This document shows, in pieces, positions 1,394 through 43,470 of a stretch of 64,000 nt of DNA. Both the position numbers and the translations under genes were made by a program. This DNA comes from Tubulanus polymorphus. Taxonomy: Eukaryota > Animalia > Nemertea. Under the pieces are notes generated by a model. It saw nothing but the letters and a program-made list of their open reading frames with translations. It did no database searches and had not been told where the DNA came from. Positions within the stretch are counted from its first letter, which is position 1, and each line of letters begins with the position of its first letter. The stretch is taken from NCBI RefSeq assembly GCF_964204645.1, contig NC_134027.1, forward strand, positions 18,252,560-18,316,559. Direction: 5' to 3'.

Positions 1394-1791
1394 AGTAATA
1401 GGGATAATAGGCTTTCAGATCAAAGGTCGAAGGGTCGAGCTCGTAAAAAAATGAAAATAACAATAATTTACAGTTAAATTAGTCGCGCACTCTCCTAATT
1501 CAACTGTAAATTATTATTATTTTCATTTTTTACTCACTCGCCCCTTCAACCTTTAACCTGAAAGCCTATTATCCCTATTACTATTAAAATAATCATATAC
1601 ATGAATAACATTTAAATTGACAGATTATTCAATATAAAAGTGTAAGCTCTTATAGAATAGATATATAGATATATTTTAAACATTATTTCAATATTCATAT
1701 TTGTATGAGTTAGATTTTTAAACATTAAAAGTGTTAGTAAAGTGTGATTGAAATAATTCATATTTAAATCATTGAACTTCTAAAATCAATT
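1394..1791 (+). repeat. Left TIR; the outer 189 nt (1394-1582) form an imperfect hairpin
   Basis: Reverse complement of 16964-17356. Internally AGTAATAGGGATAATAGGCTTTCAG pairs with CTGAAAGCCTATTATCCCTATTACT. Confidence 0.95.
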
Positions 1792-1814
1792 TAGTAAAAA
1801 AATATGTATAATAA

Positions 1815-2468: not shown

Positions 2469-2850
2469 ACGCTTAGAAAACCGGTTACTCTCGATCTATG
2501 TCAAACCGCCTATATTTAATTGTATTAGGTTGCTTACTACTGAAACATATGTTGCCAAATATATCTTGTTTTCAATTCTAAAGAATTAATTAACTTCATC
2601 ACAAAGGAACATCTGTTACAATCCAGGCAAATATGTGCAGAAATAATTAGTTTGGTCGAACGTGCGCCACGTCGGCAGTTAGAAATCAAATTTCACATAC
2701 ATAGTACGTATTGGATATTCTCTCTCAAAACACAGTTTACAGTTCTAAATCTAAATGTAAGTACCGTTTTTTGTAGTTATTATGAAGTAGGGAAACCTTT
2801 AAACATATTTAAGTACAGTAATTCATTTTCACGACATCTTTTAGATTAAA

Positions 2851-3126
2851 ATGGAATACAGAGATCGACCAGAAATTCCAAGTCAACCATCGGAAGAGGA
2901 TCCAGAAACGATGGATAGTGAAATACAGGAATCAATAGAAATGGAGGATGAAACTCTCGTAATTGACGAACAAACTTCACAAAAATTACAAGAACATTTG
3001 GATTATCATCAAGAAATGGTGAAAATTCTGAGTGATGTAATACATAATAAACAATTACCGCGCGAACTACAATTACCAAAATTACCAGCAACGCGACTTA
3101 AATTGCTGTTGGGAATCGAAAACTAA
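2851..3126 (+). CDS. Acidic hypothetical protein (91 aa)
   Basis: Open ORF starting in TAAAATG. A degenerate, possibly related region lies near 32200-32410. Confidence 0.55.
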   Translation: MEYRDRPEIPSQPSEEDPETMDSEIQESIEMEDETLVIDEQTSQKLQEHLDYHQEMVKILSDVIHNKQLPRELQLPKLPATRLKLLLGIEN

Positions 3127-3130
3127 GAAA

Positions 3131-3310
3131 ATGAGTGGAGATATCAGTGCCGGTTTTGAAAGAAAACTGAGAAGAGTAGGTAGATTAATAAAATATGAAA
3201 AATTCAAAATATTAGGATTAGCATTTAGTGAAGTAGTCAGATATTTACCAGAAATTGAAGAAATGATTGGAAACAATCCAGTAATTAAAGAATTCTTGAC
3301 AAAATTATAA
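3131..3310 (+). CDS. Small hypothetical protein (59 aa, MSGDISAGF...KEFLTKL)
   Basis: Open frame read manually, immediately downstream of the 91-aa ORF. Confidence 0.4.
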   Translation: MSGDISAGFERKLRRVGRLIKYEKFKILGLAFSEVVRYLPEIEEMIGNNPVIKEFLTKL

Positions 3311-3383
3311 ATTATAACACTGAAGGTCTTTGTAATATAGATATCAAAAATGTAATCTCGATTGTATATATCTGTTTTAATAT

Positions 3384-3587
3384 TGTATTGATTACTGTTA
3401 ACTGTGTATTGCGCAATAACCGGTCCGATTGGACCGCTTTTCTATTGTTCTCCATTGTTCTATTATTGATCGTTGTTAACGGCGGCGGTTGTTCTGTATT
3501 GATTGTTTACTGTTAACTAAGTATTGCGCAATAACCGGTCCGATTGAACCGCTTTTCTATTGTTCTCCATTGTTTTATTATCGATCG
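3384..3587. repeat. Two direct copies of a ~90-bp unit about 112 bp apart
   Basis: GTATTGCGCAATAACCGGTCCGATT(G/A)..CCGCTTTTCTATTGTTCTCCATTG occurs twice. Confidence 0.8.
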
Positions 3588-3997
3588 CTAAAATTTGTAT
3601 AATAAATATATGTGTTTATGAAATAGTAATTCCACCAGTCGTTTCTTTGAATTTATTTTGAGTTTGAGGATTTATTATCGAGGATCCGAAATGACTTATC
3701 TGGACAGTTATAATTACTGCTCCTAATAGATAGACAATAGTAGTGAGATATTAAATCCTAATTTAAATAAAATATAATAAAAAAACAATAACTTCAACTG
3801 CTAGTGAATTCTATTATATTTTTAATATTTTCTTTTCAAAAAGAGAATACTTTATATTTTGAATAGATTCAAATAGAAATTTTTTAAATTCAAATAGCTA
3901 GTATCAGTAGTCAATACTAAAATTCTTTAACTTTAACTATCTAGTATCATTTGAAGAATACTTATAATATTTTTCTTATTAAATTTCTCTAATATCA

Positions 3998-4591
3998 ATG
4001 TCAAAGAAATCGAGTAAGAATAGTATTGATATTGAAAAGACATTAGATGATTTGGGTATAAGTGATAATAAAGATACTGTTGTAACTAATTGTGCTCAAG
4101 TTAATTGTAATATAGATTATGAATACTATTTATATTGTAAACACCATCTTGAATTATTAATTGCTGGTGGAAAATCTAAAGAGTTTTTAACTAAGATAAT
4201 TACTTTTCAAGAATTAGATGCTATGAAACCCGTAAAAAAATATTTTAAGATTTATGAAGAAGCTAGATTAGCTAGAATAAATGATTCTATTTCAGATGGT
4301 ATTGTCAAATGTTATTCAAAATTATGTAACCAGTTAATACCAATTAATGATGAAAATGAATTATATAGTGATTTGAAAAATGACTATTTAGTTATGACTG
4401 AATTACAAAAATGGGTTGGTTATGCTTCATTTCAATTAGGATCGGTTATGAAATTAATTTCTACTGGCGTAATAACATTTTCGAACATCAAGCCTATGGA
4501 ATATAAATCAGGTAAGAACGAAACAGATGTACTACAACCAAACGTCGAAACAGAAAATGAATCAGAACAATTAACTAAAATAAATGAGTGA
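3998..4591 (+). CDS. Conserved hypothetical protein of the element (197 aa)
   Basis: Intact ORF. Close homologue at 30385-30990 (-). Confidence 0.75.
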   Translation: MSKKSSKNSIDIEKTLDDLGISDNKDTVVTNCAQVNCNIDYEYYLYCKHHLELLIAGGKSKEFLTKIITFQELDAMKPVKKYFKIYEEARLARINDSISDGIVKCYSKLCNQLIPINDENELYSDLKNDYLVMTELQKWVGYASFQLGSVMKLISTGVITFSNIKPMEYKSGKNETDVLQPNVETENESEQLTKINE

Positions 4592-4952
4592 TAGCGTTAA
4601 GAAAAAGGTTAGATCTGAAAAACAAATTAAACGGGCAAGAGAATTAGGTAAAAGATCTTCAGAATATAAAAATGCTAAGAAAAAGAAATTAACTGATATA
4701 AATGAATCACAGACTTTATCTGATATTAATTCAAATAATAATCCATCTGATTCTTCTAATGCTGGAAGTAATTATAAATTATATATTACAATTGGATTAG
4801 TAACAGTTATTATATTATCTGGTGTAATATATAATTCAAAATTCAAATCTGATGATAAAGATGATTCCAATGACAATAAACCTATCATACCAGAAAATAA
4901 ATCAAATCATAAAGTCATTGAAACTAAATCTAAATTATTATTAATCGATTAA
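4584..4952 (+). CDS. Single-TM protein with a basic N-terminus (122 aa)
   Basis: Hydrophobic segment LYITIGLVTVIILSGVIY. Homologue at 30038-30388. TAAATG start. Confidence 0.75.
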   Translation: MSDSVKKKVRSEKQIKRARELGKRSSEYKNAKKKKLTDINESQTLSDINSNNNPSDSSNAGSNYKLYITIGLVTVIILSGVIYNSKFKSDDKDDSNDNKPIIPENKSNHKVIETKSKLLLID

Positions 4953-4958
4953 AATGAG

Positions 4959-5566
4959 ATGAAAAAAGAACAATATTTAAGAGAGTTATATTATAACCCA
5001 GAAAGTGAAGTATCATATTCTAACGTTTCAGAATTATGGAATAAAATTAAATCTGATAATGAAAATGGTGATATAAAATATAGTGAATTGAAATCATGGT
5101 TACAAAATCAACCAACATATCAAATCCACAAGAAAATGGATAAAACTTATTTAACAAGAAAAGTTATGGTTTCATATATCGATCAACAATGGCAAGCAGA
5201 TTTAATTGACATGAAGAACTTAGAGGAATACAACAAAGGATATTTCTGTATATTAAATGTTATAGACATATTCAGTAGATACGCATGGTCAATTCCAATC
5301 AAAAATAAAACTGGAATAGAAGTAACAAATGCTTTTAAATCTATATTTAAAGAAGCTATTCCAGATAAGATACAATTTGATGAAGGTAAGGAATTTTATA
5401 ACAAACATTTCAAAAAACTATTATCTGATAACGATGTAGACTATTTTTCAACACACTCAGATAAAAAAAGCATCTATTATAGAAAGATTTAATAAAACAT
5501 TGAAAACTAGAATGTGGAAATATTTTACTGCTAATGAAACATACAAATATATCGATGTATAAGATG
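4959..5566 (+). pseudogene. int: Retroviral-like (rve) DDE integrase, frameshifted and truncated
   Basis: QWQADLIDM, DIFSRYAW and FDEGKEFYN, then a frameshift to IIERFNKTLKTRMWKYF. Similarity to copy C ends near 5566. Confidence 0.92.
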
Positions 5567-5601
5567 CATAGAATCTTTATTATCAATATGCTTATCTGTA
5601 A

Positions 5602-6348
5602 CTATATCACCATGTCGGCGCCATTTTCATTATTATCTTTATTAGTGTTTGCTCCTAATATTTCATTTACAATGTTTGATACTAATTTAATAGCATCGGT
5701 TAAATCTAATTCATCTTTATTAGGTGTTGCTAATAATAAATCTTCATGTAATTCTTTACCATTTACTTTTTGATTTGAAACAAACTTTGTAACATATCTA
5801 AATGGGTGTTCTATAAATTCTTTTAAACCAACACGTTCTATAACATTATTTATATGTACCCTTGTATTCATATGTTTATTCCAATTTGATGGAACGTTTG
5901 AATATCCACCTTTACAATATCCACAATAATTTCTATTTTCACTAACATTTAATATTATTTCATTATTTGATGTAGAAGGTATTACATTATTAGATGTAGA
6001 AGGTATTACATTATTAGATGTAGAGGGTATTACATTATTAGATGTAGAAGGTATTACATTATTAGATGTAGTAGGTATTACATTATTAGATGTAGTAGGT
6101 ATTACATTATTAGATGTAGAAGGTATTACATTATTAGATGTAGAAGGTATTACATTATTATCAATTACATTACTTAAATTATCAACAACACCACTTTTAT
6201 TATTATCGATTTCTATTAGTTTAGTTTTATAAATTTTGAAAATAGGATCAAATATCAAAGCTATATTACAAGGTATTACATAATATAAACCATCATTATT
6301 TTCATGTGTATCGATGTATGGAATATGTTTATATACTTTACCTCCCAT
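5602..6348 (-). CDS. Variable-slot protein with an 8-aa repeat (NNVIPSTS)x8 and a C2H2-like Zn finger
   Basis: 24-bp tandem repeat at ~5965-6160; CGYC...WNKHMNTRVH; TAAATG start. Confidence 0.7.
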   Translation of the reverse strand: MGGKVYKHIPYIDTHENNDGLYYVIPCNIALIFDPIFKIYKTKLIEIDNNKSGVVDNLSNVIDNNVIPSTSNNVIPSTSNNVIPTTSNNVIPTTSNNVIPSTSNNVIPSTSNNVIPSTSNNVIPSTSNNEIILNVSENRNYCGYCKGGYSNVPSNWNKHMNTRVHINNVIERVGLKEFIEHPFRYVTKFVSNQKVNGKELHEDLLLATPNKDELDLTDAIKLVSNIVNEILGANTNKDNNENGADMVI

Positions 6349-6380
6349 TTATTATATAAATTTTAATTAAAGTTAAAATG

Positions 6381-7581
6381 TTAATACGTTACACTATTCA
6401 ATTGAGAATTTACAATATTTAATTGCGCGTCAGATATAATATAAATATGCATTTTGAAATTTAGGCTTCCTTTTTTCTTTGTCATGAATAATTGTATTCC
6501 ATCTTTAGTGTTTTTTAATTTTTTTCCAGAACCATGTAATGAATTATCCTCTGTTGTTCTAAAATCTAACCATAATGCATATTTATTGCCGGTATAATAA
6601 TCAATTTGATTAATATTACAATTTTCAGATGATTTTACTTTTTCATTCATAAAATGTTTTCTAATTTCTGGCCACTGATCTATCATTCTCATTCCTTGAC
6701 AAAATATTTTATTTGCTATTCCTTCGATAATTATTTCTACTTTTGTTATTTCAGGATTATAATACTTATCAACATTTATTGCGCCATTAGTATATGTTGT
6801 TAATATTCTCATTAATTATTTCATCATTTGCATTAATAGTTACAGTTTTAAATTTATCAATATAATCATATAATAATGAAAATCCTTGATTGTATTTAGT
6901 TTGAATTATACTTGAAATATTTTCATCAGTTACTGTATCATATTCTAAACATATATTCGATAATTTATAACTCATATCTTTATTAACGCTAGATATTACA
7001 ATTTCATTTACAGGAGCAAATGTAATTTCGAATATAACGTCTTCTTGAATTGCATATTTATATAAAGGTGCATTATTATTTATCAATTCAAAGTCTAATG
7101 GAATTTTATATTTGCTTCCATATATACCTTTTATCAATTTTTCTATAGCATTAGTTAATATTGCATTATGCGCTTCTGATCTTAATTTATTTTGGTTTTC
7201 TGATTGGATTCCTTGAAATATCATATTATTTCTGTTTTCTTTAGTTAACCATAAATCTTTATAATGCATGAATAAATTATAATCATCTAATGAGAAAACT
7301 GTTTCTGGTCCAATCTTTATAGTTAATTTTTTAATGAAATATCTTCCAACATTATCAACAACATAATTATTATTATTACCAATTACTTTTATATCGGCTG
7401 ATAAATAAATACTATTTGGAACATAAAAAGTATTTTGTGTTAATCGAGGGATTCTAACATATAAAGTTTCATCGGGATTAATATTAGAAGGGTTATGAGT
7501 AATTATATGATGTGATCTTTCTGCTTTAATAACATTAGATATTCTATGATTCTTAGAAGGATTGATATAACTCCCACTCAT
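6381..7581 (-). pseudogene. MCP: Major capsid protein (double jelly-roll inferred), split by a ~45-nt deletion near 6795
   Basis: ITHNPSNINPDETLYVRIPRL, NVGRYFIKKL, LSNICLEYD, KYALWLDFRT.EDNSLHGSG and IISDAQLNI resemble invertebrate PLV/adintovirus capsids. The copy at 49415-50658 retains the deleted FPRRSIK segment. Confidence 0.8.
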
Positions 7582-9024
7582 TTATTTAACAAAAAAATTA
7601 ATTAAAATAATTGCACTTACAACTGTAATTAAAAATAAAATAATATGTTCAGCAGCAAAGTTAATAATGTTTCCTGCAGATTTCAGTATAAAACCAACAA
7701 TTGATGCAATAATTCCTGTTAATGCTGCAGCAGATTTTTTAGATAGTTCCCATAAATATTTTGCTAATTTCTTTAAACCATCCTTAACTCTATCTTGTAT
7801 TGAATTATTATCATTCGGGGGTTTATCCGGTTTATTGGGAGTAGGAGTAGATTTCAAAGCATTTGATATTGCTAAACCAATTGTTGTAAATAACATAGTT
7901 ACAGCTGTTAGAATTGAAAGAATTGTTATTCCTTCAAACTTAAATAATAATTTTATTCTATCTTTTAGTGATATGTCAGAATTTGGTTTTAGTATTAACT
8001 CTTTAACAACAACTTTTAATCTATTAATACAATAATCATATGATTTTAACAATAATTTCATTTTTTCTTTCTGAAATTCTATGTTATATTCTAAATCATC
8101 AATTTCTTTTTCTAAATATGCATTTCTTTTTTTAAATTCAATTTCTTCAATAACTTTAAATTCTCTATCTAATTTTAATTGTTCTAATTCTTTTCTGGTG
8201 TCAAATAATTTATTTTCTAAAGGTTTAATTTTATTATATCTAATATGTTTTTCGCGCGCAATTTTATCGGCTTCATCTCGTATACTTATTATTTCTCTAA
8301 TTGTTTTTTTAGAAAACATACTTAAAGCTTCTATTTCTTGATCTGTTGAATCAAGTAATCCCTTCGGTAAAAGTTTTTCAGTTTGAACTTCAGTGTTTGA
8401 TTTAAGTTTACTAGTTTTGGAAGTTTTATTCTGTTCAGAAGTTGTTTCTGTTTCTGGATTATCTTTGATTGTTTCAAATAATTTATTAATTCTTTGTTTA
8501 ATTACTTTTTCATTTTTACCAATTAATTCTTGTGTTACATCTTCTGGTTCACTACTATTTCTTATTCTATTAATTTTAGATAGGTCTAACCTAAGCGAAG
8601 TTGATTTTGCTAATATTTTGTCTTGAATTTTATAAGAGATGTTAATATAATAATCATCTTTCAATTTATAATAATATTCACCATCTAAAAACTTTAATTC
8701 TTTTACTAAAAGTCTGGCGCCTCTATCATTTATATTATATCCAGAATCTTTAAATACACGTTGAAAATCATACATAAATTCATAATTTTCTATATTTTCT
8801 CTTTCTAAATCTGGATTTAAATTTTCAGTAGGTATTCTCGATCTAGTTCTTCTATCATATTTCTCTGTTGATGGGACTTTAGAACCACTATCTGCTAAAT
8901 TAGAATTATATGTTGTATCATTATCAATATTAGTATCAGCAGTCATATAATCATCATCGTTAGTATTGGCATCATTATTATTTCCCATGTTTTCCATTTC
9001 ATAATCTTCTCCACCTTCTGCCAT
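7582..9024 (-). CDS. 480-aa coiled-coil protein with C-terminal hydrophobic/amphipathic helices (putative virion membrane protein)
   Basis: Acidic N-terminus, long coiled coil, GITILSILTAVTMLFTTIGLAI and GIIASIVGFIL...IILFLITVVSAII. Homologue at 47978-49395. Confidence 0.8.
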   Translation of the reverse strand: MAEGGEDYEMENMGNNNDANTNDDDYMTADTNIDNDTTYNSNLADSGSKVPSTEKYDRRTRSRIPTENLNPDLERENIENYEFMYDFQRVFKDSGYNINDRGARLLVKELKFLDGEYYYKLKDDYYINISYKIQDKILAKSTSLRLDLSKINRIRNSSEPEDVTQELIGKNEKVIKQRINKLFETIKDNPETETTSEQNKTSKTSKLKSNTEVQTEKLLPKGLLDSTDQEIEALSMFSKKTIREIISIRDEADKIAREKHIRYNKIKPLENKLFDTRKELEQLKLDREFKVIEEIEFKKRNAYLEKEIDDLEYNIEFQKEKMKLLLKSYDYCINRLKVVVKELILKPNSDISLKDRIKLLFKFEGITILSILTAVTMLFTTIGLAISNALKSTPTPNKPDKPPNDNNSIQDRVKDGLKKLAKYLWELSKKSAAALTGIIASIVGFILKSAGNIINFAAEHIILFLITVVSAIILINFFVK

Positions 9025-9047
9025 TTACATAATAAAAAAATTAAAAT

Positions 9048-10340
9048 TTAAAATATAATATTCCTCCTATTACAAATTCCTATACAAGTTATAGCTAATT
9101 TAGTATTTTCATGGGATTTATTATCATCATTTAGTTTAATTATTTCATGTTGAATAATATCAGTTTTAATATTTTCTGATGTATTATAATCCGGTTTAGA
9201 ATCATTATTTAATTTAATATTCATAGTTTTAGTTTCTGTTGATTGAATATGTTTTTTATTTTTTTCACCTTCCATTAATTTTGGAGCAGTAATAATCTTT
9301 TTATTTATATCATTCAATCCAAATGAATTATTTATTGTTGCAGTTTTAATTAGATTATTATAACCAATTATATTTCCCATCTTTAATACTAAATCATTAG
9401 AAATAATAAATAGATTAGGGCCTATACAATGATTTAATCTAATATGTGATTTATCTAAATAATTTTTATATCTTACAATGTTTTCCGGAATCGATCTATT
9501 TTTATCATTATGAATTGAATCTTCAAATAATGCTTTGAATTGTTTCTGCGCATCGAATGAAGTGTTATCATTTCCAACTATTGGGGCTCTTGTTTCAACT
9601 TGCGCACCTAAAATACATATCAAATAAGTTCTAATAGATTGATTTATTCTTTGTATACCTGATTTTGTAAAACCTTCACCATTTTCTAAAATGAAATTAA
9701 CCCAACCATTATTATTATCAATTTTATAATTATGATTAGCTCCAATTCTATGCATATAATCAATTCTTTTTATTTCATACTCTTCACCAACACCTTGCAA
9801 TTTACCATGCGCTCTAAAATCGGAATTAATATTTATATTAAATTCATTACATATTTTATAAAACTTAGATAGATTAATATTATTATCCAATTCTTTAAAA
9901 TATTTAGACCCGGGTAAAGGACATTCTAATTCATTTAATATTATTCTGATTTGAAAATATGTGTGAAATCTAAATATTGTGTGAATTAATTTTAAATCAG
10001 AATACTTCAAATTTTTATCTAAGTTATTTAAATGATCATTCCAACTTATTCCACATCCTGTTGTTGCACAATAAACAGCAAAATTTAATTGATTCTGCCA
10101 ATATTTCATATTAGATTTTACTTTATATATATGGTATTCATCTCGAGTAAAAGTAACTTCATATGTATTAAATATATTTTCCATTTTAGAAATAAAAAAC
10201 TGTGATTCAGTAACATAAATTTCTAAATTAGTTAATGAATTTAAAACTACATTTTTATATGTAATATTTTTTTTAAAATCTATTGCAGGAATATTATATT
10301 TAATTGATTTATTATATTGGAAAGCTTTTAGAAACCCCAT
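9048..10340 (-). CDS. Conserved hypothetical PLV protein (430 aa)
   Basis: YWQNQLNFAVYCATTGCGIS. Homologue at 42058-43190 continuing at 47746-47940. Confidence 0.8.
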   Translation of the reverse strand: MGFLKAFQYNKSIKYNIPAIDFKKNITYKNVVLNSLTNLEIYVTESQFFISKMENIFNTYEVTFTRDEYHIYKVKSNMKYWQNQLNFAVYCATTGCGISWNDHLNNLDKNLKYSDLKLIHTIFRFHTYFQIRIILNELECPLPGSKYFKELDNNINLSKFYKICNEFNININSDFRAHGKLQGVGEEYEIKRIDYMHRIGANHNYKIDNNNGWVNFILENGEGFTKSGIQRINQSIRTYLICILGAQVETRAPIVGNDNTSFDAQKQFKALFEDSIHNDKNRSIPENIVRYKNYLDKSHIRLNHCIGPNLFIISNDLVLKMGNIIGYNNLIKTATINNSFGLNDINKKIITAPKLMEGEKNKKHIQSTETKTMNIKLNNDSKPDYNTSENIKTDIIQHEIIKLNDDNKSHENTKLAITCIGICNRRNIIF

Positions 10341-10359
10341 TTATATAATTAAAAAATTG

Positions 10360-10781
10360 ATAATTTATTAATTCTTTTTATAATTTATCCTGTTCTTCAA
10401 CTCTTATATGACCATTTAAATTTATTATATAATTTGATGTATTTTTTAATTCATTAATTTCTTTTATATTAGATTTAATTTTTTCTTTATTACTTTTAAA
10501 GTTTAATTTTGAACTTATACCAGTTAAAACACTTGAACTCAACCCTTGCACACCAATTGATATAGCTAAAGGTGTTAATGGACTGAATATTGCTAAAAAT
10601 GTTATTACAGAACTAATTGTAACTGAACCACTGAAAATAAAATATACATAATTTTACTTTTTAAATATTTTTTCTTTTTTATCTTTAAGTCACTTTCAAA
10701 TTCTAATATTAGTTTTTCTAAATATGTTTTTGATTTAGTTTTATTTATATCATGAGGAATAATATCAATATTATCATCCAT
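10360..10781 (-). pseudogene. Frameshifted protein with hydrophobic segments (~140 aa)
   Basis: MDDNIDIIPHDINK... then, in a shifted frame, SVTISSVITFLAIFSPLTPLAISIGVQG. Homologue at 41608-42040. Confidence 0.65.
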
Positions 10782-10799
10782 TTATTTAGCAAAAAATTA

Positions 10800-11222
10800 C
10801 TAATTAGTAAACTTATACGCTACAAATATAACAATAACAGTTCCGCCTAAAATCCAAATTGTTTCATATTTCTTCTGTTTATTACTTGGGGTATAATAAT
10901 CTGATATTGTAGGTTTATGTAGATGTAATTTTTCTTTATTGGTTACCGCGTTATATAAACTCATTGCATCATCAACTGATTGAAAATCTCTATGTGAAAT
11001 CTTCTGATCATATAATTCCTTGTTAATATAATCCATATAGTTTTGCCTCTTTTCTCTGTATTCTTCTGCTGCTTTATTGTATTTCTCTAATGCTAAGTTA
11101 TGTCTTTTTTGTTCTGTTAATGATCCATTTTTATCAATATGCTTAAATAAATAACCACCACCAGTAAATGCTAAAGCGTTAACAATTGCTGATCCTATAA
11201 TAGTTATAATTGCAGAAGCCAT
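10800..11222 (-). CDS. 140-aa protein with hydrophobic N- and C-termini
   Basis: MASAIITIIGSAIVNALAFTGGGYLF...EQKRHNLALEKY. Homologues at 26176 and 41166. Confidence 0.8.
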   Translation of the reverse strand: MASAIITIIGSAIVNALAFTGGGYLFKHIDKNGSLTEQKRHNLALEKYNKAAEEYREKRQNYMDYINKELYDQKISHRDFQSVDDAMSLYNAVTNKEKLHLHKPTISDYYTPSNKQKKYETIWILGGTVIVIFVAYKFTN

Positions 11223-11247
11223 TTATTTAGTAAAATAATTACACATT

Positions 11248-11412
11248 TATATGGGGGGAATATATTTTTGTTTTTCTAAATAATCAATAGTTAAATTAGA
11301 TTACACTTCCCATTTTAAATACTTTTTTTAATACCATTGAATAACCAACAGTTCCAACTGATAGTAATGCTCCATTATATAATCCAGTTATTATCCACTT
11401 ATTATCACTCAT
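11248..11412 (-). pseudogene. Small hydrophobic protein with an internal deletion
   Basis: MSDNKWIITGLYNGALLSVG... An intact 73-aa homologue is at 40920-41141. Confidence 0.7.
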
Positions 11413-11754
11413 TTATTTATCAAAAAAATTACTATCTTCAAAATATTTAGTTAACTTATTTATGATTATTTCAACATTTATTTCATTACTACTTTTATGA
11501 TTATCATATATTTTGATTAATTTGTTTTTAATATCATCAATAATTCCATCTTCATTGAATTCATAATATTCTAAAGGTGATTTAATTAAATCAATAACTT
11601 TTTTTATATTATAATTTTCTTTTTTAATCATTGATGCATTGTTAAATGATTTAATTTTTATATCAGTAATTACATCATTTCGTTTAATTCTCATTTCTTT
11701 ACCATGTTTAAAATCAAACCCAAAACATATACTCGGCCCAACAGTTATATTCAT
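11413..11754 (-). CDS. Hypothetical protein (113 aa)
   Basis: Intact ORF with TAAATG start. Homologue at 25668-25970. Confidence 0.7.
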   Translation of the reverse strand: MNITVGPSICFGFDFKHGKEMRIKRNDVITDIKIKSFNNASMIKKENYNIKKVIDLIKSPLEYYEFNEDGIIDDIKNKLIKIYDNHKSSNEINVEIIINKLTKYFEDSNFFDK

Positions 11755-11779
11755 TTATATAGTGAAAAAATTACTCTCT

Positions 11780-12512
11780 TCATCTTATAACTAATTCATA
11801 AATTACAGGGAAATTATTTAAATCAATTAAGTATCCATTATGATTTCTAATTTCTAATCTAAAATTATTAAAACGAGGAATGCATGGTTTGAAATCACAT
11901 TCTGTTAAATTATGATTTATTTGCGTTCCAAATTCTTTAACATTCTTCAATGGTAAAATGTTTAGTAAACCAGAATTACAAGTTATATCTTTAGTTGCTT
12001 CGAATGTTTTTGTAGGATCGATTAAATTGCAATAAATATAAAAGTGTGTAAAAGGCATTATATTTGGTGTAGCATCAGCATTGCGTATCCTTACATCTGG
12101 GGTTATTCCTAAAATTTTAGCTAGAAATTGATGTTGATCTTCATTACCTAATTTTATTCTTATTTTATCGGAGCTATCACTTTTAATCAGTCTTAATCCA
12201 AATCCAGCAGATGCACCCATTTTCAACCGAGCTCTTCTATTAATTTCCTGCGCTAATGTATCTAAATTATATAATCCTGGTTTAAGATAAAGATGAAACC
12301 ATTTACTTTTATTTCTATCATGAATTAAAAAGACTATGTTCAATAGTTTTATCCGATACATTGTAAAAAGAATTACATAAACTTATATTAACTAATTTGA
12401 AATCTACACAATTCTTTAATTCTCTATCTAATTGAACTAGTAAATTATGAGATTTATAATTTGTAAGTTTTCTAGAATCTACAAATATTCTGTATTCTTT
12501 TAATTCTACCAT
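11780..12512 (-). pseudogene. mCP: Minor capsid protein (penton, single jelly-roll inferred), one frameshift
   Basis: IFVDSR, NSFYNVS, LKPGLYNL, FYIYCNLID and FRLEIRNHNGYLIDLNNFPVIYELVI follow the Polinton penton pattern. Confidence 0.8.
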
Positions 12513-12530
12513 TTATTTTACATATTTTCT

Positions 12531-12884
12531 TATTCGAAATCTATTTCATGGTGCCCTTTTTCATTCTTACCTTTGTATACAAAAATAGAAATCACCAGAA
12601 CATAATTCTTCTAAGTCTTCACTTGATAATCTATGAAATCTATCCGGTAAATATGTTCTGAATTTATATTTATTTCCTTTTAATCCTTCATATTCTAAGT
12701 GTATAACTAATTTATCTCCATATTTGTTAGTAACTGTGTCAATATGTGTAATTAGATATTTCTTATGGATTATTAATTCTTTTAACTTCTTAAATTTATA
12801 ATCTACTGATTTGACATTTGAAGTATCTTTTATTCTATCTAGAAATGATTTGTTGTTCTCACTGTGCGCTTGTTTACTCTCCAT
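12531..12884 (-). CDS. Small Polinton protein, possibly an OB-fold ssDNA-binding protein; 3' frameshift
   Basis: VTNKYGDKLVIHL...TYLPDRF. Adjacent to pPolB. Homologue at 20470-20800. The fold assignment is inference. Confidence 0.55.
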
Positions 12885-12913
12885 TTATAATACATATTTT
12901 TATTAAAATTTGA

Positions 12914-15900
12914 TTAACACGTTAGAATTCTTTTCATTATCTCGTTCTCTTTTGTTTCTTCTCTTTTAAATTTTAAGTATTCATCTAAATTACAACCTAA
13001 AGCAACTGTATGAATTCCATCATCTAAAATATATCTTTTATCATCAAATGGGTTTAGACTTATCTTTTCAATTAATTCAATAAACATTTCATGATCTTCA
13101 GATCTTAAACATCTCATCTTATGTTTTCTAACTTCTTCATTGAATATACAATTGTAATGTAATCTTTGAAATGGATATTCTTTTCTACTACACTTTTGGT
13201 TATTCCTTTTAACTTTTTAGCTTCATGTTCTTTAGTTTTATATGAATACATTTGAGATCTAATACCGATGAACTCAATCATTTCTTCACCACCTAATTCA
13301 TCTTTGAATTTACCGGGAACTTTTTTATTATCATTGCTAAATAATTCATGATCTTTAGGATAATTACTAAAATCAAAATGATGTTTTAATGTTTTTAAAT
13401 CATCAGTTATGTTATCAGTTTTTATCTTTAATATGTAAGAATCTGTATCAAAGTATAGAATTTCTATATGTTTTTCTCCAAAAAGTGGTTGTAATACATT
13501 ATAATAGAATTCATACATTAGTAATTTTGATAATTCTAAAACTAAAGCGCCAACATAGATTGGTTTATTAAATTTCATTGATGTTCTTCTCATCTTAACT
13601 GCAGCTAAATTTTCTTCAAATATTCTGTTACCAATGAACTTAGGATATGTTTGTAAATGTATAATTCTTTTACCATTACTAACTAACTCAATATCATTTC
13701 TATTTCTAATATTTTCACAAGTCTTACCGTAGAATGCATTATTCATTAACTTGAAGAAATCTTTTTCGAAATCAGTTTTAGCTTCAGTTCTCTGTTTGGT
13801 GTTAAAATCTATATATTTTTCTAACCACTTAGATTGACTAAATGAAATATATCTATGTACTTTTTTTAGAACCATTCCTTGATTCAAATAAAACTTTAAC
13901 ATTCTATAATGTACTACATAATTATATTTATCTTCTTGAGTTACCATTAACTTTTCTGTATGAATATGATTTTCGGGTTTAATTCTTTTTTGATAATTTG
14001 ATAATTCTTCATGAGTTACAGTTTTATGTTCGGGACAGTATGCTAGATTTCTAGATTTAAATTTAATATGTTCAGGATATTCTAAATCTACAACAAAGAA
14101 CTAACCAGTATCTGAATCATCTGCAATATCTAGAATTCTTTTCTTCCAATAAAATTTATCATTATTTTCATTCTGTAAAACTTCAGTTAATTCAGATACT
14201 CCATAAGGTTGTGGTTCCATCATTGCCCAACCATACAAATTATTTGCATCTATATATAATAACTTATATCCAGGGTTATCGTTTACATTGAAATATCTAC
14301 CTAATACACCTGAAACTCCTCCTCTTATAGATTTTTCAAATAATAATAATTGATCTATATTTGTTAACAAATCCATTTTTATATCTGTAAATTTTAATCC
14401 ACAATCCCATGTTAAACCTGGTGATGAATAACAATGACAAGGATCAATATTGAAATATTTTAGGTTTACATCTCTAAACCTTTCGAATATATCCGATAAT
14501 AATAATACATCTGATTTTAAATATAAATCTACTAATTGCCCATGATTTTCTATTTTGAAATGATTCCAAATATTCAATGTTCTATTATATACTTCATCTC
14601 TAACATATTCATGTTTTAATTCATCATAGAATTGTTCTTTCAATAATTCAGTTATGTTAAAATCATTATGATTTTTACAGAAAGAATATGGAATTGCTCC
14701 TTTATATCTCATTAATTGAAAATCATCATTATTTGGATAGTGTTGTTTTAATATTTTTAATTCATCATCCACTAATGATTTTGATAAGTTATCTAATGAA
14801 CTATTTAAAAATCTATATGAATCTATAAATCTTAGGCAACCAAATTGGAATGAAATATAATTCTCAGATGTTTTAGCTAACATTCTAAATTTATAAGTTG
14901 GTATTTTATCTTTTGATCTATTTGAATTTAATCTTTCTATTTCATTATTAATTTCTTCTATTTTATGACATAACTGTTTGATGAATAAATGTGCATCATA
15001 TCCTGATAGATTATGAAATATAACTTGTAACAAAATTAATTTTCTTAGCTTGTAAGTTACAATTCTCATGCGCGGCGCCTCTAAACTTTCCATTCAAATG
15101 ATCATGGTCTCTTACTTTTTTATCGTTATAATTAAATATCTTTTCACAATAATAACATTTATCTGCAAACTCAAATGCTTCTTTATCTTCTTCTGTCATT
15201 ATAATTTCTATATTTGTATTCAATAATTTACTAAATCTTATTTCATATTCAATTAATAAGTCACAAAAATGATTGATAACATTTTCATTTCTATAATCAT
15301 AATATTCACTTTCAATTAGTTCTGGGTAATCAGATTTTATATATAACCCGAAAGCTGCGGCTGATTGATGAATCTTTTTAATTGTATTTGTTATTGGCGG
15401 TTCATCTGAAAAATCATTTTCATTAGAATTTAATTTCTTTCCTTTATAATATATTTCTTTTCTATCTTGATCAGTTAATTCTTTATTTAATGATTCAAAA
15501 TCTCCATATATTACAAATGGTACTTTATTTTTGTAATCATATTTTTTTAATTCTATTATTTTATCCTTTTCATTTGGTAAAACTAATTTACAATAATCAT
15601 GATTTTCACATAATTGTTTATGATTTAATAATGTACTTTCATTACTGAATTTATGTAAACATTTTCTACATAGATATATTTTATTATGGTGATCACTTTC
15701 TGTTCTAAAGAATAAATCTATTTGTTTAATCCACATATAATGATTCTCATAATATAATATCTATAACATCATTTGAATCATAATCTTTTGATAGATATAA
15801 AGGTTCTAATGTATAATGTTTTATGTTGTTACCTTTTGTATTTGGTAATTTGATTAAATCAAATACATTTATCTTTATATTATTATCTCTTTCTATTTTT

Positions 15901-16941
15901 GGGATGTTTTTAATTATAACAGGATACTTATCTATCTTATAATTATTTTCAAATGGTTTATAATGAGTTAATCTACAAATATTATAAGTTGCAGGATGTA
16001 AACAACTTATTATAGCCCATAGAAAACATTTATCATCAGAATTTTGTACATTTATAACAGCATTAGTTTTAAATGGTAGTTTAATATAACAATAATTCAA
16101 TATCTGGTTCTTTATAATATGATACATTATTTTCATCAATTGGTTTTGATTTAGTTAACTTATTATATTTTGTGTTATAAACATGTAAAGTCATAAATAT
16201 TATTTCATCAAATATTAACCAGATCCTTCAAAATATTTCTCTTCTATTTTAGTTTTTACTTCATTATAACATTTATCTAATTTATCATCTATATGTTGTT
16301 TAGATATAATATGTTGTGAATGAGAATTTATATTATATATTGGTATATCTTCAGATTTTGTGAATTTAACTTTTGATGAAATACTTATTTTAGGATATTC
16401 AACATCAGTTATTATTTTTATTATTTCTTTCATATTTTCTAAATGTTTTTTTATTTTCTTCTAATGTTTTTCCTTTATGAAATTTAAACTCGATAGCTGC
16501 TGGGCCAATATCACTTTTAAATGCTTCGGTTATCTCTATATCTTTTTTATTATCAAATGAATTAATATATTTTCTTACATATTCCATGTATGGTCTTTTA
16601 TTGTTTAATTTATTTTTTATGCTTTTAATTGTCTTCTGTTTCTTATCATTATCTTTATCAAAATAATCTTAACCTAAAATATCATTATTCTTATTTCTAA
16701 TATGACTTTTAGATTTTAAATGTTCTTTATAATATCTTTTATCACTGAATGATTGATTACATGTATCACATTTGTATGTTTCTTTTTCATTCTTTAATTC
16801 ATCTAATTTAGTTTCTAATATATCATCTTTATATTCTAGTTTCAATTTATTCTCTAAATGTGTTTTAGTTTTATTGTGTCTTGCTTTTTTGGATTTATCT
16901 ATATTGATATTACATGTTGGGCAGTACTTATTTGCTTCCAT
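12914..16941 (-). pseudogene. polB: Protein-primed family B DNA polymerase with N-terminal Zn fingers and an EndoVII-like insert; multiple frameshifts
   Basis: NSDDKCFLWAI, YGDFES (ExoI), VRDHDHLNGKFRGAAHENCN, FHNLSGYDAH (ExoII), YLKSDVLLL (ExoIII), YIDANNLYGWAM (A), KLMNNAFYGKT (B), YFDTDS (C) and SLNPFDDKRY. Confidence 0.95.
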
Positions 16942-16963
16942 TTTAATACTAATTTTTTTTTTT

Positions 16964-17356
16964 AATTGATTTTAGAAGTTCAATGATTTATATCATGTAT
17001 TATTTCAATCACACTTTACTTACACTTTTAATGTTGAAAAATCTAACTCATACAAATATGAATATTGAAATAATGTTGTAAATATATCTATATATCTATT
17101 CTATAAGAGCTTACACTTTTATATTGAATAACATTTAAATGTTATTCATGTATATGATTATTTTAAGAGTAATAGGGATAATAGGCTTTCAGGTTAAAGG
17201 TTGAAGGGGCGAGTGAGTAAAAAATGAAAATAACAATAATTTACAGTTGAATTAGGAGTGTGCGCGACTAATTCAACTGTAAATTATTGTTATTTTCATT
17301 TTTTTACGAGCTCGACCGTTCGACCTTTGATCTGAAAGCCTATTATCCCTATTACT
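16964..17356 (-). repeat. Right TIR; terminal hairpin at 17168-17356
   Basis: Reverse complement of the left TIR, with about 4 mismatches in the 189-nt hairpin part. Confidence 0.95.
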
Positions 17357-20254: not shown

Positions 20255-23200
20255 ACCGTCATCATTAAACAATCTATGATCAAACCTTTTATCCGATATA
20301 TTATAAAAAGAGTTACATAAACTTACATTTATCAATTTTAAATCTACACAATTTTTAAATTCCCTATCTAATTGTACTAGTAAATTATGTGATTTATAAT
20401 TTGTAAGCCTTCTAGAATCAACAAATATTCTATATTCTTTTAATTCTACCATTTACTTTACATATTTTTTTATTCGAAATCTATATCATTGTGCCCTTTT
20501 TCATTCTTACCCTTATATATGAAATAGAAATCACCTGAATATAATTCTTCAAGATCTTCACTTGATAATCTATGAAATCTATCTGGTAAATATGTTCTGA
20601 ATTTATATTTATTTCCATTTAATCCTTCATATTCTAAGTGAGTAACTAATTTATCCTCATATTTATTAGTAACTGTTTCAATGTTAGTAATCAAATATTT
20701 CTTATGAATTGTTAATTACTACTGATTTTACATTTGTAGTATCTTTAATTCTATTTAAGAATGATTTGTTGTTCTCACTGTGTACTTGTTTACTCTCCAT
20801 TTATTATACATATTTTTATTAAATTGAATTAAAGCCGATTAACACGTTAGAATCCTTTTCATAATCTCATTTCCTTTTGTATCTTCCCTTTTGAACTTTA
20901 AGTATTCATCTTAATTACAACCATACGCGACTGTATGAATTCCATCGTCTAAAATATATCTTTTATATTTTACTAACTAACTCAATATTTTTTCTATTTC
21001 TAATATTTTCACAAGTCTTACCATAGAATGCATTATTCATTAGTTTGAAAAAATCTTTTTCAAAATCAGTTTTAGTTTTAGTTCTCTGTTTGGTGTTAAA
21101 ATCTATATATTTTTGTAGCCATTTAGATTGATGACTAAATGAAATATATCTATGTACTTTTTTAGAACCATTCCTTGATTCAAATAGAATTTTAAAATTC
21201 TATAATGTGCTACATAATTATATTTATCTTCCTGAGTCACCATTAACTTTTCTGTATGAATATGATTATCAGGTTTAATCCTTTTTTGATAATTCTTCAT
21301 GTGTTACAGTTTTATTTTAAGGACAGTATGCTAGTTTTCTAGATTTAAATTTAATATGTTCAGGATATTCTAAATCTACAACGAAGAAGTAACCAGTATC
21401 TGAATCGTCTGCAATATCTAGAATTCTTTGCTTCCAATCAAATGTATCATTATTTTCATACTGTAAAACTTCAGTTATTTCAAATACTAAGGTTGAGGTT
21501 CCATCATTGCCCAACCATATAGATTCTTTGCATCTATATATAATAACTTATATCCAGGGTTTACATTGAAATATCTATCACCTAATTCACCTGAAACTCC
21601 TCCTCTTATAAATTTTTCAAATAATAATAATTGATCTATATTTGTTAATAAATCCATTTTTATATCTGTAAATTTTAAACCACAATCCCAAGTTAAACCT
21701 GGTGATGAATAACAATGACATGGATCAATATTAAAATATTTTAGATTTACATCTCTAAACCTTTCAAATATATCAGTTAATTATAATACATCTGGTTTTA
21801 AATATAAATGTACGAATTCACCATGATTTTTCATTCCAAAATGATTCCAAATATTCAATGTTCTATCATAAACTACGTCTTGAACATATTCGGATCTTAA
21901 TTCATCAAAGAAACGTTCTTTTAATAATTCAGTTATGTTAAAATCATTATGCGATTTATAAAATGAATATGGAATCGCGCCTTTATATCTCATTAATTGA
22001 AAATCATCATTATTTGGATAGTGTTGCTTTTATATTTTTAATTCATCATTAACTAATGATTTTGATAAATTATCTAATGACCTACTTAAAATTCTATATG
22101 AATCTATAAATCTTAGACATCCAAATTGGAAAGATATATAATTCTCAGATGTTTTAGCTAACATTCTAAATTCTTGAGTTGGTATTTTAGCAACATCTTT
22201 TGATCTATTAGAATTGAATCTTTCTATTTCATTATTGTTTGCTTCTATTTTATGACATAGCTGTGTGATAAATAAATGAGCATCATACCCTGATAAATTA
22301 TGACATATTAAAGGAACAGAGTTAATTTTCTTAGCTTGTAAGTTACAAATCTCATGCGCTGCGCCTCTAAATTGACCATTCAAATGATCATGATCTCTAT
22401 TTTATCTTTAAAATTAAGTAGTTTTTCACAATAATAACATTTATCTGCAAACTCAAATTCTTCTTTATCTTCTTCTGTCATAATTATTTCTATATTTTTA
22501 TTTAACAATTCGTTAAATTTCATTTCATATTAATAAGTCACAAAAATGATTGATAACATTCTCAGATCTATAATTTTAATATTCACTTTCAATTAGTTCT
22601 GGATAATCAGATTTAATATTTAACCCGAAAGCTGCAGCACTTTGATGAATCTTTTTAATAGTTTTTGTTTTTGGTGGTTTTTCTGAAAAATTATTTTCAT
22701 TAGAATTCAATTTCTTTCTTTATAATATATTTCTTTTCTATCTTGATCAGTTAATTCTTTATTTAGTGTTTCAAAATCTCCATATATTACAAATGGTACT
22801 TTATTCTTGTAATCATATTTTCTTAATTCTAATATCTTATCTTTTTCATTTGGTAAAATCATTTTACAATAATCATGATTATCACATAATTGTTTATGAT
22901 TTGATAATGCACTTTCATTACTGAATTTAGTTACACATTTTCTACATAGATATATTTTATTGTTATTATTTTCTGTTCTAAAAAATAAATCGATTTGTTT
23001 TATCCAAATATAGGCCTAATGATTCTCATAATATAATATATCTATAACACCATTTGAATCATAATCTTTTGATAAATACAAAGGTTCTAATGTTAAATGT
23101 TTTATATTGACCTTTTGTATTTGGTAATTTGATTAAATCAAATACATTTATCCTTACATTTTTATCTCTTTCTATTTTTGAGATATCTTCAAATCTAACT

Positions 23201-24433
23201 GGATAATTGTCTATCCTGTAATTATTTTCAAATGGTTTATAATGTGTTAATCTATAAGTATGTTGAGTATAATCTTCAACTGGGTGAAAACAACTTATAA
23301 TTGTCCATAGAAAACATTTATCATCAGAATATTGTACATTTATAACAGCATTAGTTTTAAATGGTAATTTGATATAACTTGATGCATTTATATTATCATC
23401 TTTATAATATAATAAATTGCTTTCATCAATTGGTTTTGTTTTAGTTAATTTATTATATTTTGTATTATAAACATGTTAAGTCATAAATATTATTTCATCG
23501 AATATTAAGCCAGACCCTTCAAAGTATTTCTCTTCTATTTTACTTTTTATTTCATTATAGCATTTATTTAATTTATCATCTATATGTTGTTTTGAAATAA
23601 TATGTTGTGAATGAGAATTTATATTATATGTTGGTTTATCTTCAGATTTTATAAATTTAACTTTAGCAGATATGCTAATTTTGGGATATTCTACGTCTAA
23701 TTATTTTCATAATATTTTTCATATTTTCTAAATGTTTTTTTATTTTCTTCTAATGTTTTGCCTTTATAAAATCTAAATTCAATAGCAGCTGGTCCAATAT
23801 CACTTTTGAATGCTTCGTTTATTTCTATTCCTTTTTTTATTATCTAATGAATTAATATAATATCTAACATCTTCCATGTATGGTCTTTTATTGTTTAATT
23901 TATTTATCATTCTCTTAATTGTCTTCTGTTTCCTATCATTATCTTTATCAAAATAATCTTCACCTAAGATATCATTATTAATATTTCTAATATGACTTTT
24001 AGATTTTAAATGTTCTTTATAATATCTTTTGTTACTGAATGATTGATAACGTGTATCACATTTGTATATTTCTTTTCCATTCTTTAATTCTTCTTATTTA
24101 GTTTCTAATATAGCATCTTTATATTCTAATTTTATTCTTTTTCTAAGTGAGATTTAGTTTTATTGTATCTTGCTTTTTGAGATTTATCTATATTATCTAT
24201 TTATCCGATTTTACATGTCGGACAGTAGTACTTCTTATTTGCTTCCATTTTAATATCAAATTTTTTATTAAAATTGATTTTAGAATTCATTCATATATAA
24301 AATTTTCATCTATATATGTTATTCATTTATATGTTATTCGTATATATAAAAATATTAGAGTAATTGTATAAATAGGGGTTCTGGCCAAAGGTCGAGAGGT
24401 CGAGCTCGTAAAAAATTAAAATAAATTCTCGCG
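20255..24433 (-). mobile_element. Polinton fragment B: mCP N-terminus, SSB-like gene, decayed pPolB and half of the terminal hairpin
   Basis: Colinear with 12310-17000 of copy A. Many stops, and a deletion near 20968 removes polymerase motif C. Confidence 0.9.
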
Positions 24434-25667: not shown

Positions 25668-26668
25668 AGTATATGTATTGGGTTTGATTTTAAACATGGT
25701 AAAGAAATGAGAATTAAACTAAATGATGTAATTACTGATATTAAAAGTAAATCATTTAACAATGCATCAATGATTAATAAAGAAAATTATAATATAGAAA
25801 AAGTAATTGATTTAATTAAAACACCTTTAGAATATTATGAATTAAATCAAGATGGAATTATCGATGATATTAAAGATATATTATCTAAAATATATGATAA
25901 TCATAAAAGTAGTAATGAAATAAATGTTGAAATAATTATAACTAAGATAACTAAATATTTTGAAGATGGAGCATTATTATCGGTTGGAACCGTTGGTTAT
26001 TCAATGGTATTTAAAAAAAGTATTTAAAATGGGAAGTGTTAATGTTGATAGATTTGATATAAATGATATTTTAAAATTAACATTAGCAGTTACTTTATCT
26101 AATTTAACTATTGATAATTTGGAAAAACAAAAATATATTCCTCCTATATAAATGCATAATTTTTTTGTTAAATAAATGGCTTCTGCAATTATAACTATTG
26201 TAGGATCGGCAATAGTTAATTTACTGGTAATTATTGCTGGTAATTTATTTAAGCATATTGATAAAAATGGGTCATTATCAGAACAAAAAAGACATAACTT
26301 AGCATTAGAAAAATATAATAAACCAGCAGAAGAATATAGAGAAAAGAGACGAAATTACATGGATTACATCAATAAAGAATTATATGATAAGAAGATTTCA
26401 CATCGAGATTTTCAATCAGTTGATGAAGCAATGAGTTCATATAACGCAGTAACAAATAAAGAAAAATTACATCTATACAAACCTAAATTATCAGATTATT
26501 ATAGAATACTTAAGATGGAATACAATTATTCATGAAAAAGAAAAAAGGAAGCTTAAATTTTAAAATGCACATTTACATCATATCTGACGCGCAATAAAAT
26601 ATTGTAAATTCTCAATTAAATAGTGTTATGTATTAGATATTTAATTTTAATAAAACTTTTTATAATAA

Positions 26669-43250: not shown

Positions 43251-43470
43251 GTGGATTTCAACAAAGCATTTGATAAGGCTCAACATCAGCCATTTCTAAA
43301 GAGGCTATTAGGAAACAGTATCAATGATAGGTCGCCCAAATGGCTTAGCAGTTATCTCTGAACGGAAACTTGAGACGCCTCATCTTGGAATGAGACGGTC
43401 TAACTAGTGGAGTCACGCAAGGTAGTATCCTAAGTCGTCTTCTGTTTAATGTCCTGACAAATGACATACA
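43251..43470 (+). pseudogene. Non-LTR retrotransposon reverse transcriptase fragment
   Basis: VDFNKAFDKAQH...WLSSYL...TSGVTQGSILSRLLFNVLTND. Confidence 0.7.

What the first reader, a model, noticed from the sequence alone, without database searches (positions are those of the whole stretch)
12510..16965. Second promoter class (A-tract...TAAA(A)TG) on replication-side genes
SSB-like gene AAAAATATGTATTATAAATG (12884), mCP AAAATATGTAAAATAAATG (12512) and HNH AAAAAAATATGTATAATAAATA(G) (1815) share AAAATATGTA-N3-TAAAT. The motif is kept in copy B (20452, ~20800). pPolB has AAAAAATTAGTATTAAAATG in A and AAAAATTTGATATTAAA(A)TG in B, D and H. An A-rich core plus a TAAA initiator resembles poxvirus intermediate promoters, which would imply a two-stage programme (inference). 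mCP falls in this class, which does not fit a clean replication/structure split.
Basis: partly seen in the sequence, partly recalled or inferred. Interest (0 to 1): 0.7.

Follow-up and report, generated by a model that had tools for sequence, protein, structure and literature searches.

The report
One two-way poxvirus-style promoter, not two
A decayed virus-like transposon (Polinton) starts most of its genes with a poxvirus-style signal; the proposed second, A-rich promoter class is real as sequence but is likely the A-rich end or opposite strand of one shared promoter element rather than a separate timing stage.

Summary
The quoted motifs are real: AAAATATGTA-N3-TAAAT occurs 5 times against 0.01 expected. 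They lie in a decayed Polinton (1394-17356, 6-bp target duplication). The two-stage reading is only partly supported. Across 72 non-redundant starts from this family and other Polintons, one architecture holds: an AnTm tract depleted of TpA steps at -16..-9, then TAAAT over the ATG. The A-to-T junction slides through every value from 0 to 6. Class does not follow function (replication vs virion genes, p=0.54). It switches within genes: SSB is T-type in L001, mCP is T-type in about 12% of host reads, and the major capsid is A-type in distant relatives. In head-to-head pairs one tract reads A-type on one strand and T-type on the other. The HNH and pPolB sites are the inner ends of one terminal repeat, so they are not independent. 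A longer A-rich word (TTTAATAAAA) does mark 11 starts, mostly of presumed non-virion genes, in the near clade, so a true intermediate/late split stays possible (about 30%). The likely reader is a poxvirus-type helper's post-replicative machinery (inferred; no RNA data).

The parts
1394..17356 (.). Decayed Polinton/Maverick, copy A; 6-bp target-site duplication GAAATC at 1388-1393 and 17357-17362
   Evidence: Sequence; terminal repeats; pPolB, rve and weak capsid Pfam hits
1394..1822 (+). Left extended terminal inverted repeat, running up to the HNH 5' end; its outer 189 bp is itself a palindrome
   Evidence: (I13, I18)
16934..17356 (-). Right extended terminal inverted repeat, running into the pPolB 5' end
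1799..1817 (+). A-rich start site of HNH in copy A (start codon lost); inner end of the terminal repeat
16939..16965 (-). A-rich promoter-like site of pPolB (TAAAATG type)
13114..16941 (-). pPolB, broken into at least seven ORF pieces (C2H2 zinc fingers, Endonuclease_7, DNA_pol_B_2)
12882..12907 (-). A-rich promoter-like site of the SSB-like gene, with the extended word TTTAATAAAA
12567..12884 (-). SSB-like gene, predicted OB fold (weak)
12510..12531 (-). A-rich promoter-like site of mCP, directly after the end of the SSB coding region
11780..12512 (-). Penton-like minor capsid gene, in two frames
11752..11772 (-). T-rich version of the same site (gene 11754; A-type in L001)
11410..11428 (-). 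T-rich site, small hydrophobic gene 11412
11220..11240 (-). Mixed/T-rich site, gene 11222 (A-type in L009)
10779..10799 (-). T-rich site, gene 10781
10338..10356 (-). T-rich site, gene 10340
9022..9042 (-). T-rich site, gene 9024 (A-type in L009/L010, where it is head-to-head with MCP)
7579..7597 (-). T-rich site of the major capsid gene (MCP 6381-7581, in two frames)
6346..6372 (-). A-leaning site of zinc-finger gene 6348; full extended A word in copy C/D, L002, L003 and L005
20451..20468 (-). Copy B mCP site (A-rich)
20798..20823 (-). Copy B SSB site (A-rich, extended word)
24246..24272 (-). Copy B pPolB site beside a terminal repeat
26646..26671 (+). Copy C/D site of the 6348-like zinc-finger gene (extended A word)
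32906..32932 (-). Copy D terminal site followed by a 38-codon pPolB-like fragment
37348..37374 (-). Copy E terminal site (extended A word) in front of an unrelated short ORF
58272..58297 (+). Copy H site before a pPolB N-terminal fragment

Best explanation
The element's genes share one start architecture, an AnTm tract at -16..-9 followed by TAAAT laid over the ATG, which likely acts as a single poxvirus-type post-replicative promoter; the A-rich 'second class' is likely the A-heavy end or opposite strand of that tract rather than a separate stage. SHOWN: the architecture, the sliding A/T junction, class switches within genes, and one tract serving two head-to-head genes.
For: 86 of 100 tabulated starts are TAAATG, with T at ATG-12 in 78 of 86. 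In 72 non-redundant starts the longest TpA-free A/T run at -16..-9 averages 6.22, against 4.56+-0.13 for within-window shuffles; 49 of 72 reach 6 or more against 18.3 expected; the control window -26..-19 gives 3.89 against 3.59. In copy A, 8 of 11 gene-start TAAATG have such a tract against 1 of 38 other TAAATG (p=3e-6). A counts 0..6 are 4, 18, 17, 8, 8, 10, 7. Replication (n=13) vs virion (n=20) genes: p=0.54. The gene effect is present among near relatives (p=0.002, expected from common descent) and absent among far ones (p=0.44, n=18); near-far rho=0.27, p=0.44. Switches: SSB T-type in L001; dNK, INT and most HNH T-type or mixed; ATPase A-type in most relatives; MCP A-type in L007, L013, L014. 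Of about 700 host reads at the mCP start, 82 continue into a T-run-type upstream; 5 contigs of X1 do too. In head-to-head pairs with 28-30 bp between starts (L009/L010, L011) one tract is T-heavy for MCP and A-heavy for its partner. The HNH and pPolB sites align through the terminal repeat. VITF-3 is proposed to read the vaccinia core by shape, with no consensus (PMC12917281).
Against: The extended word TTTAATAAAA precedes 11 gene starts, all in the near clade and, apart from mCP of L001, before presumed non-virion genes. It precedes no MCP or membrane-type gene. The A count has a slight second hump at 5, and bimodality was not formally tested. Over all genes the gene effect is significant (eta2 0.44, p=0.009). 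An A-then-T tract is also what overlapping intermediate (A-rich) and late (T-run) elements would give. In L013/L014 both partners read A-type. The far-lineage test is weak (5 genes). No in-host switch from T to A was seen among the 6 loose ends displayed for 10250-11850 (286 hidden). The L015/L017/L018 lineage and L020 lack TAAATG and were left out of the table. Neither the helper virus nor transcription is shown.
Confidence: 0.55

Rival explanations
1. True two-factor code. A-type sites are read by a helper's intermediate factor and T-type sites by its late factors, with mixed tracts as dual promoters. pPolB, SSB, zinc-finger genes and ATPase would then come on before capsid and membrane genes, and genes can swap class in evolution.
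For: The extended A word marks 11 starts of about six unrelated genes. A-type sites lack the T ten bases upstream of TAAA, and T-type sites have it with a T run 5-7 bp from TAAAT, matching published vaccinia descriptions. Vaccinia A32 ATPase is intermediate and membrane proteins are mainly late, which fits A-type ATPase and T-type hydrophobic genes. By eye, the SSB and copy-B pPolB sites match the G8R scaffold at 8 of 10 positions from -22 to -13.
Against: Continuum; switches in SSB, mCP, MCP, 9024, 11222 and 11754; no replication/virion difference; dNK and INT T-type. The G8R match is not discriminating: over -22..-11 the T-type MCP site matches 7 of 12 against 8 of 12 for SSB, and G8R itself is T-rich at -13..-11 (by eye). 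Vaccinia's capsid-like D13 is intermediate, yet MCP is T-type here.
Confidence: 0.3
2. Host or element-encoded transcription. TAAATG is only a translation-start context or a stop-start overlap, and the tract is a nucleosome-excluding or factor-binding site for host RNA polymerase II. A/T differences are drift.
For: No helper or RNA evidence. A sister lineage with a related MCP (L015/L017/L018) lacks TAAATG. In copy A the MCP start abuts the upstream stop codon.
Against: Head-to-head pairs carry TAAATG both ways within 19-34 bp, with no upstream stop and no room for two TATA-type promoters. The tract is fixed to within about 1 bp of the initiator. The motif persists in L001, where genes are spaced apart.
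Confidence: 0.12
3. The A-rich..TG word is a poxvirus early (or yeast linear-plasmid UCS, or mimivirus AAAATTGA) core, which makes the replication genes early genes.
For: A-rich interrupted by TG describes early cores. PgVV uses its helper's early motif before its polymerase gene.
Against: The G of TG lies at ATG-9. With the 15-nt element (TGA at positions 6-8) and a median 11-12 nt to the start, transcription would begin about 10 nt inside the ORF. No AAAANTGAAAA match with up to 1 mismatch coincides with these sites.
Confidence: 0.03

Closest known systems
Vaccinia late promoters (T run, TAAAT(G) over the start codon; PMC11980589, PMC5294985, passages seen)
   Same: TAAATG on the ATG in 86 of 100 starts; T at ATG-13 in 60 of 86; T run about 6 bp from TAAAT
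   Different: Here on a 16-kb integrating element with no recognised RNA polymerase; the tract grades into A-rich forms; function untested
Vaccinia intermediate promoters (AT-rich core -26..-13, 12-bp spacer, TAAA; VITF-3; PMC12917281, passages seen)
   Same: TAAA initiator, A-rich upstream, no T ten bases upstream in A-type sites
Polintons/Mavericks, 'adintoviruses' (PMC8502044, passages seen)
   Same: pPolB, rve integrase, A32 ATPase, MCP and penton-like gene, terminal repeats, 6-bp target duplication (the last recalled as a family trait)
   Different: No protease recognised in copy A; poxvirus-style starts; the word 'promoter' does not occur in that paper's main text
Virophages and PLVs sharing helper promoters (Sputnik and mavirus late; PgVV early, bioRxiv 10.1101/2022.07.28.501842, passages seen) and entomopoxvirus-associated PLVs (PMC11296320, abstract and term search)
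   Same: A small DNA virus without its own polymerase whose gene starts mimic a large cytoplasmic virus
   Different: The mimicry here is of poxvirus type; no helper is identified; the entomopoxvirus PLV paper has no occurrence of 'promoter' or 'motif'
Yeast pGKL linear plasmids (UCS plus TAAAN initiator; PMC6211774, passages and section 12)
   Same: pPolB-based linear element with a TAAA(N) initiator
   Different: pGKL encodes its own RNA polymerase and has an early-type UCS about 11 nt from the start; the spacing here does not fit

Membership tests
Poxvirus intermediate promoter | TAAA initiator at or just before the start codon | tested here: met
   shared by A- and T-type sites, so not discriminating
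Poxvirus intermediate promoter | No T ten bases upstream of TAAA | tested here: met
   A at that place in pPolB, SSB, mCP, HNH(A), 6348(A)
Poxvirus intermediate promoter | AT-rich core at -26..-13 with about 12-bp spacer | tested here: inconclusive
   [AT]AAnAA with an 11-13 spacer in 14 of the 25 sites with 4 or more A, and 1 of the other 47 (pattern recalled and partly circular); the core has no consensus; the planned AT comparison failed with the script machine
Poxvirus intermediate promoter | A stable gene set distinct from the late set | tested here: not met
   Switches and continuum
Poxvirus intermediate promoter | Transcribed by vRNAP + VITF-3 after DNA replication | not testable with these tools
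   Needs an assay
Poxvirus late promoter | TAAAT(G) over the ATG with a T run 5-7 bp upstream | tested here: met
   (T-type sites)
Poxvirus late promoter | [quoted passage not shown] | not testable with these tools
   No RNA run available to lay
Poxvirus early promoter / pGKL UCS | AAAAnTGAAAA-type core ending about 12 nt before the start site | tested here: not met
   Spacing would put the start inside the ORF
Polinton/Maverick | pPolB and rve integrase | tested here: met
   PF03175 E=2.7e-13, PF00665 E=1.6e-9
Polinton/Maverick | Packaging ATPase, MCP, penton | tested here: met
   Pox_A32 E=5.5e-9 in copy C/D (not found as an ORF in copy A); Capsid_N E=0.005, below cutoff; penton-like clusters
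Polinton/Maverick | Terminal inverted repeats and 6-bp target duplication | tested here: met
Polinton/Maverick | Cysteine protease | tested here: inconclusive
   No protease family among 22 ORFs scanned; the copy is decayed

The most novel reading that the evidence does not exclude
An animal Polinton lineage has captured the full post-replicative code of a poxvirus-type helper. A-type sites would be read by its intermediate factor and T-type sites by its late factors, packed into 24-34 bp two-way promoters, and the element re-times genes by swapping a 25-30 bp promoter cassette at the start codon. That would be a staged programme in a parasite with no transcription genes, and it points to an unseen pox-like virus of this host.
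Probability: 0.25. Interest if true: 0.8.

Novelty: new variant of a known kind. Interest (0 to 1): 0.5.

Why it matters
How Polintons without an RNA polymerase get transcribed is open. A poxvirus-type start architecture on a high-copy endogenous element (read depth about 700 from an eighth of one DNA run) gives a direct test of the helper-virus idea with existing purified vaccinia factors. The 72 natural variants and the two-way promoters also form a ready panel for asking what separates intermediate from late recognition. The specific claim of a second temporal class is weaker than first proposed.

Tried and rejected
No whole genome is held for the window. MCP scans of viral contigs, genome contigs and phages and an ATPase scan found no relatives. 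A viral-contig scan for the A-type motif gave 4 loci, none at a start of an ORF of 100 aa or more and none resembling this family. No RNA holder was listed; this is no evidence either way. Read-level variation at the pPolB site was not obtained and remains open. The single-sequence SSB model gave no fold match. The alignment-based model gave OB-fold rows at Z up to 5.0 and a phage SSB at E=2e-3. The mCP profile had no PDB sequence match. The early-promoter reading was rejected on spacing; stop-start coupling was rejected as a general cause by head-to-head pairs; a trans-splice acceptor was rejected by inspection (no AG after the T run). PMC241297 and PMC1489061 are not held, so the AAAnAA core pattern is recalled. 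That vaccinia has bidirectional promoters is also recalled (listing only). Searches for a published TAAATG promoter on Polintons (listings only) showed none; no listed paper held both 'polinton' and 'TAAATG'. Subscription papers and supplements were not seen.
Full report
Setting. The window is eukaryotic host DNA (probably animal; inference from the flanking transposon-type ORFs) with several decayed copies of one Polinton/Maverick. Copy A runs from 1394 to 17356 between terminal inverted repeats, with the 6-bp duplication GAAATC on both sides. It holds a fragmented pPolB (PF03175, Endonuclease_7, zinc fingers), an rve integrase and an MCP with a weak Capsid_N hit. An A32 ATPase is seen in copy C/D. 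The other copies are 70-95% identical pieces. Raw DNA reads give a depth near 700 from about 12% of one run, so the family is high-copy. No RNA polymerase or transcription factor was recognised among the ORFs scanned.

Observation. AAAATATGTA-N3-TAAAT matches 5 times against 0.01 expected (a post-hoc pattern). The five are three genes: SSB and mCP in copies A and B, and HNH in A. The SSB label rests on a weak OB-fold prediction (pLDDT 73; OB-fold chains at Z up to 5.0; a phage SSB at E=2e-3). mCP falls among penton-like clusters. The HNH site in A has lost its start codon. It aligns in register with the pPolB site through the extended terminal repeat, up to the first codons, though its last 20 or so bases resemble the SSB site more. 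HNH in copy D has a different upstream. D and H carry only pPolB N-terminal fragments beside a terminal repeat.

Relatives. An MCP search gave 79 proteins. A 37-row alignment fetched 18 metagenome loci at 44-76% identity, and a pPolB piece fetched 3 viral contigs. I tabulated 100 gene starts by hand from the window and 15 loci; about a dozen were unnamed ORFs picked by eye. Left out were L003 (near-copy of L002) and L015, L017, L018 and L020, whose starts lack TAAATG. Of the 100, 86 are TAAATG. Dropping duplicates and the non-TAAATG starts other than pPolB of copy A left 72. Among those dropped were L019 pPolB (T-type) and L012 MCP (A-type).

One architecture. In the 72, positions -16..-11 relative to the predicted start are 90-99% AT, and TpA steps are rare (1-7 of 72 per position). 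The longest AnTm run at -16..-9 averages 6.22 against 4.56+-0.13 in letter shuffles of the same windows; 49 reach 6 or more, against 18.3 expected. A control window upstream shows little excess (3.89 vs 3.59). In copy A, 8 of 11 gene-start TAAATG carry such a tract against 1 of 38 others. The number of A at -16..-11 takes every value: 4, 18, 17, 8, 8, 10 and 7 for 0 to 6. A slight second hump exists and was not formally tested.

Does type follow gene? Replication/integration genes (pPolB, SSB, INT, HNH; n=13) do not differ from virion genes (MCP, mCP, ATPase; n=20), p=0.54. Gene identity predicts A count among near relatives (p=0.002, as shared descent predicts) and overall (p=0.009), but not among far ones (p=0.44, only 5 genes). 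Near and far means correlate at rho 0.27 (p=0.44). SSB is T-type in L001 while its mCP is A-type. The L001 deoxynucleoside kinase is T-type. MCP is A-type in L007, L013 and L014. Within the host itself, 82 of about 700 reads at the mCP start, and 5 contigs of another run, continue into a T-run-type upstream. For five T-type genes no switch was seen among the 6 loose ends displayed (286 hidden); only tract length varied.

Two-way promoters. Seven head-to-head pairs have 19-34 bp between the start codons, with TAAATG both ways (L002, L009, L010, L011, L013, L014, L021). In L009/L010 and L011 the same tract reads T-heavy for MCP and A-heavy for its partner. In L013/L014 both sides read A-type. 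The reverse complement of AnTm is AmTn, so the two 'classes' can be two strands of one element. These pairs also exclude stop-start coupling as the general cause of TAAATG.

The word TTTAATAAAA occurs 22 times in the window and family loci. 12 are followed by TAAA+TG (background 4%), and 11 of these are gene starts: pPolB (B, D), SSB (A, B), the 6348-type gene (C/D, L002, L003, L005), the copy E terminal gene, and L001 mCP and zinc-finger gene. None precedes MCP or a hydrophobic gene, and none occurs in far lineages. This is a real sub-motif. It may be a spread cassette: reads show the SSB-type promoter joined to an HNH-like start, and terminal sites head three different genes. It may instead be a selected class. 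A-type sites lack the T ten bases upstream of TAAA, as vaccinia intermediate promoters do, and T-type sites fit the late description (PMC11980589 and PMC5294985, passages). Vaccinia's A32 is intermediate, so a structural gene in such a class would not be anomalous; but D13 is intermediate too, and its polymerase and SSB are early. The vaccinia intermediate core has no consensus and is proposed to be read by shape (PMC12917281, passages). A by-eye match of 8 of 10 to the G8R scaffold is nearly equalled by the T-type MCP site.

Mechanism. Most likely (0.55) one poxvirus-type post-replicative promoter with a shape-read tract, usable on either strand, read by a helper virus's polymerase; the helper, the start sites and the shape readout are inferred. 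A true intermediate/late code remains at 0.3, host or own-factor transcription at 0.12, and an early core at 0.03 (spacing). An earlier unchecked note of this scan (e1-8580207) reports poxvirus-style starts on a Polinton in another genome; it is a lead, not support. Helper-promoter mimicry is known for virophages and PgVV. My listings showed no paper describing TAAATG promoters on Polintons, and the entomopoxvirus PLV and adintovirus papers do not use the word promoter; subscription papers and supplements were not seen.

Verdict. Observation partly confirmed; interpretation partly supported; new variant of a known kind; interest 0.5.

Noticed in passing
window 1394-1582, 17168-17356, 37482-37670: The outer 189 bp of each terminal repeat is itself a long imperfect palindrome (-62.1 kcal/mol, z -18.7). 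It carries an exact AAAAATGAAAA (poxvirus early-core-like) on both arms; 7 of the 9 exact matches in the window lie in these ends.
   Followed up: partly
window 12879-12910 (reads): 81 reads join the SSB promoter to a sequence resembling the HNH 5' end (24 of 30 letters, by eye), and 211 reads keep the promoter with another upstream. Either HNH sits behind this promoter in some copies or the same cassette of about 32 bp is used at another place. HNH position also differs between copies A and D.
   Followed up: partly
L021 1-9034: A distant Polinton-like contig (pPolB piece 37% identical, integrase-chromo gene) has TAAATG at 7 of 7 tabulated starts, two pairs head-to-head.
   Followed up: partly
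L015, L017, L018: A lineage with a related MCP (44-50%) lacks TAAATG at its gene starts, so the wiring has been gained or lost within the family.
   Followed up: no
L001 10343-10981: A close relative carries a deoxynucleoside kinase (PF01712, E=1.7e-31) behind a T-type site.
   Followed up: partly
window 37126-37374: Copy E has an unrelated short ORF behind a terminal A-type site.
   Followed up: no
window 43469-46500: Large arrays of 31-bp and 153-bp repeats in host DNA between Polinton fragments.
   Followed up: no
window 806-1321 and 17449-18138: Copy A is flanked by YqaJ-like and SWIM-finger ORFs, probably a host transposon into which it inserted.
   Followed up: no
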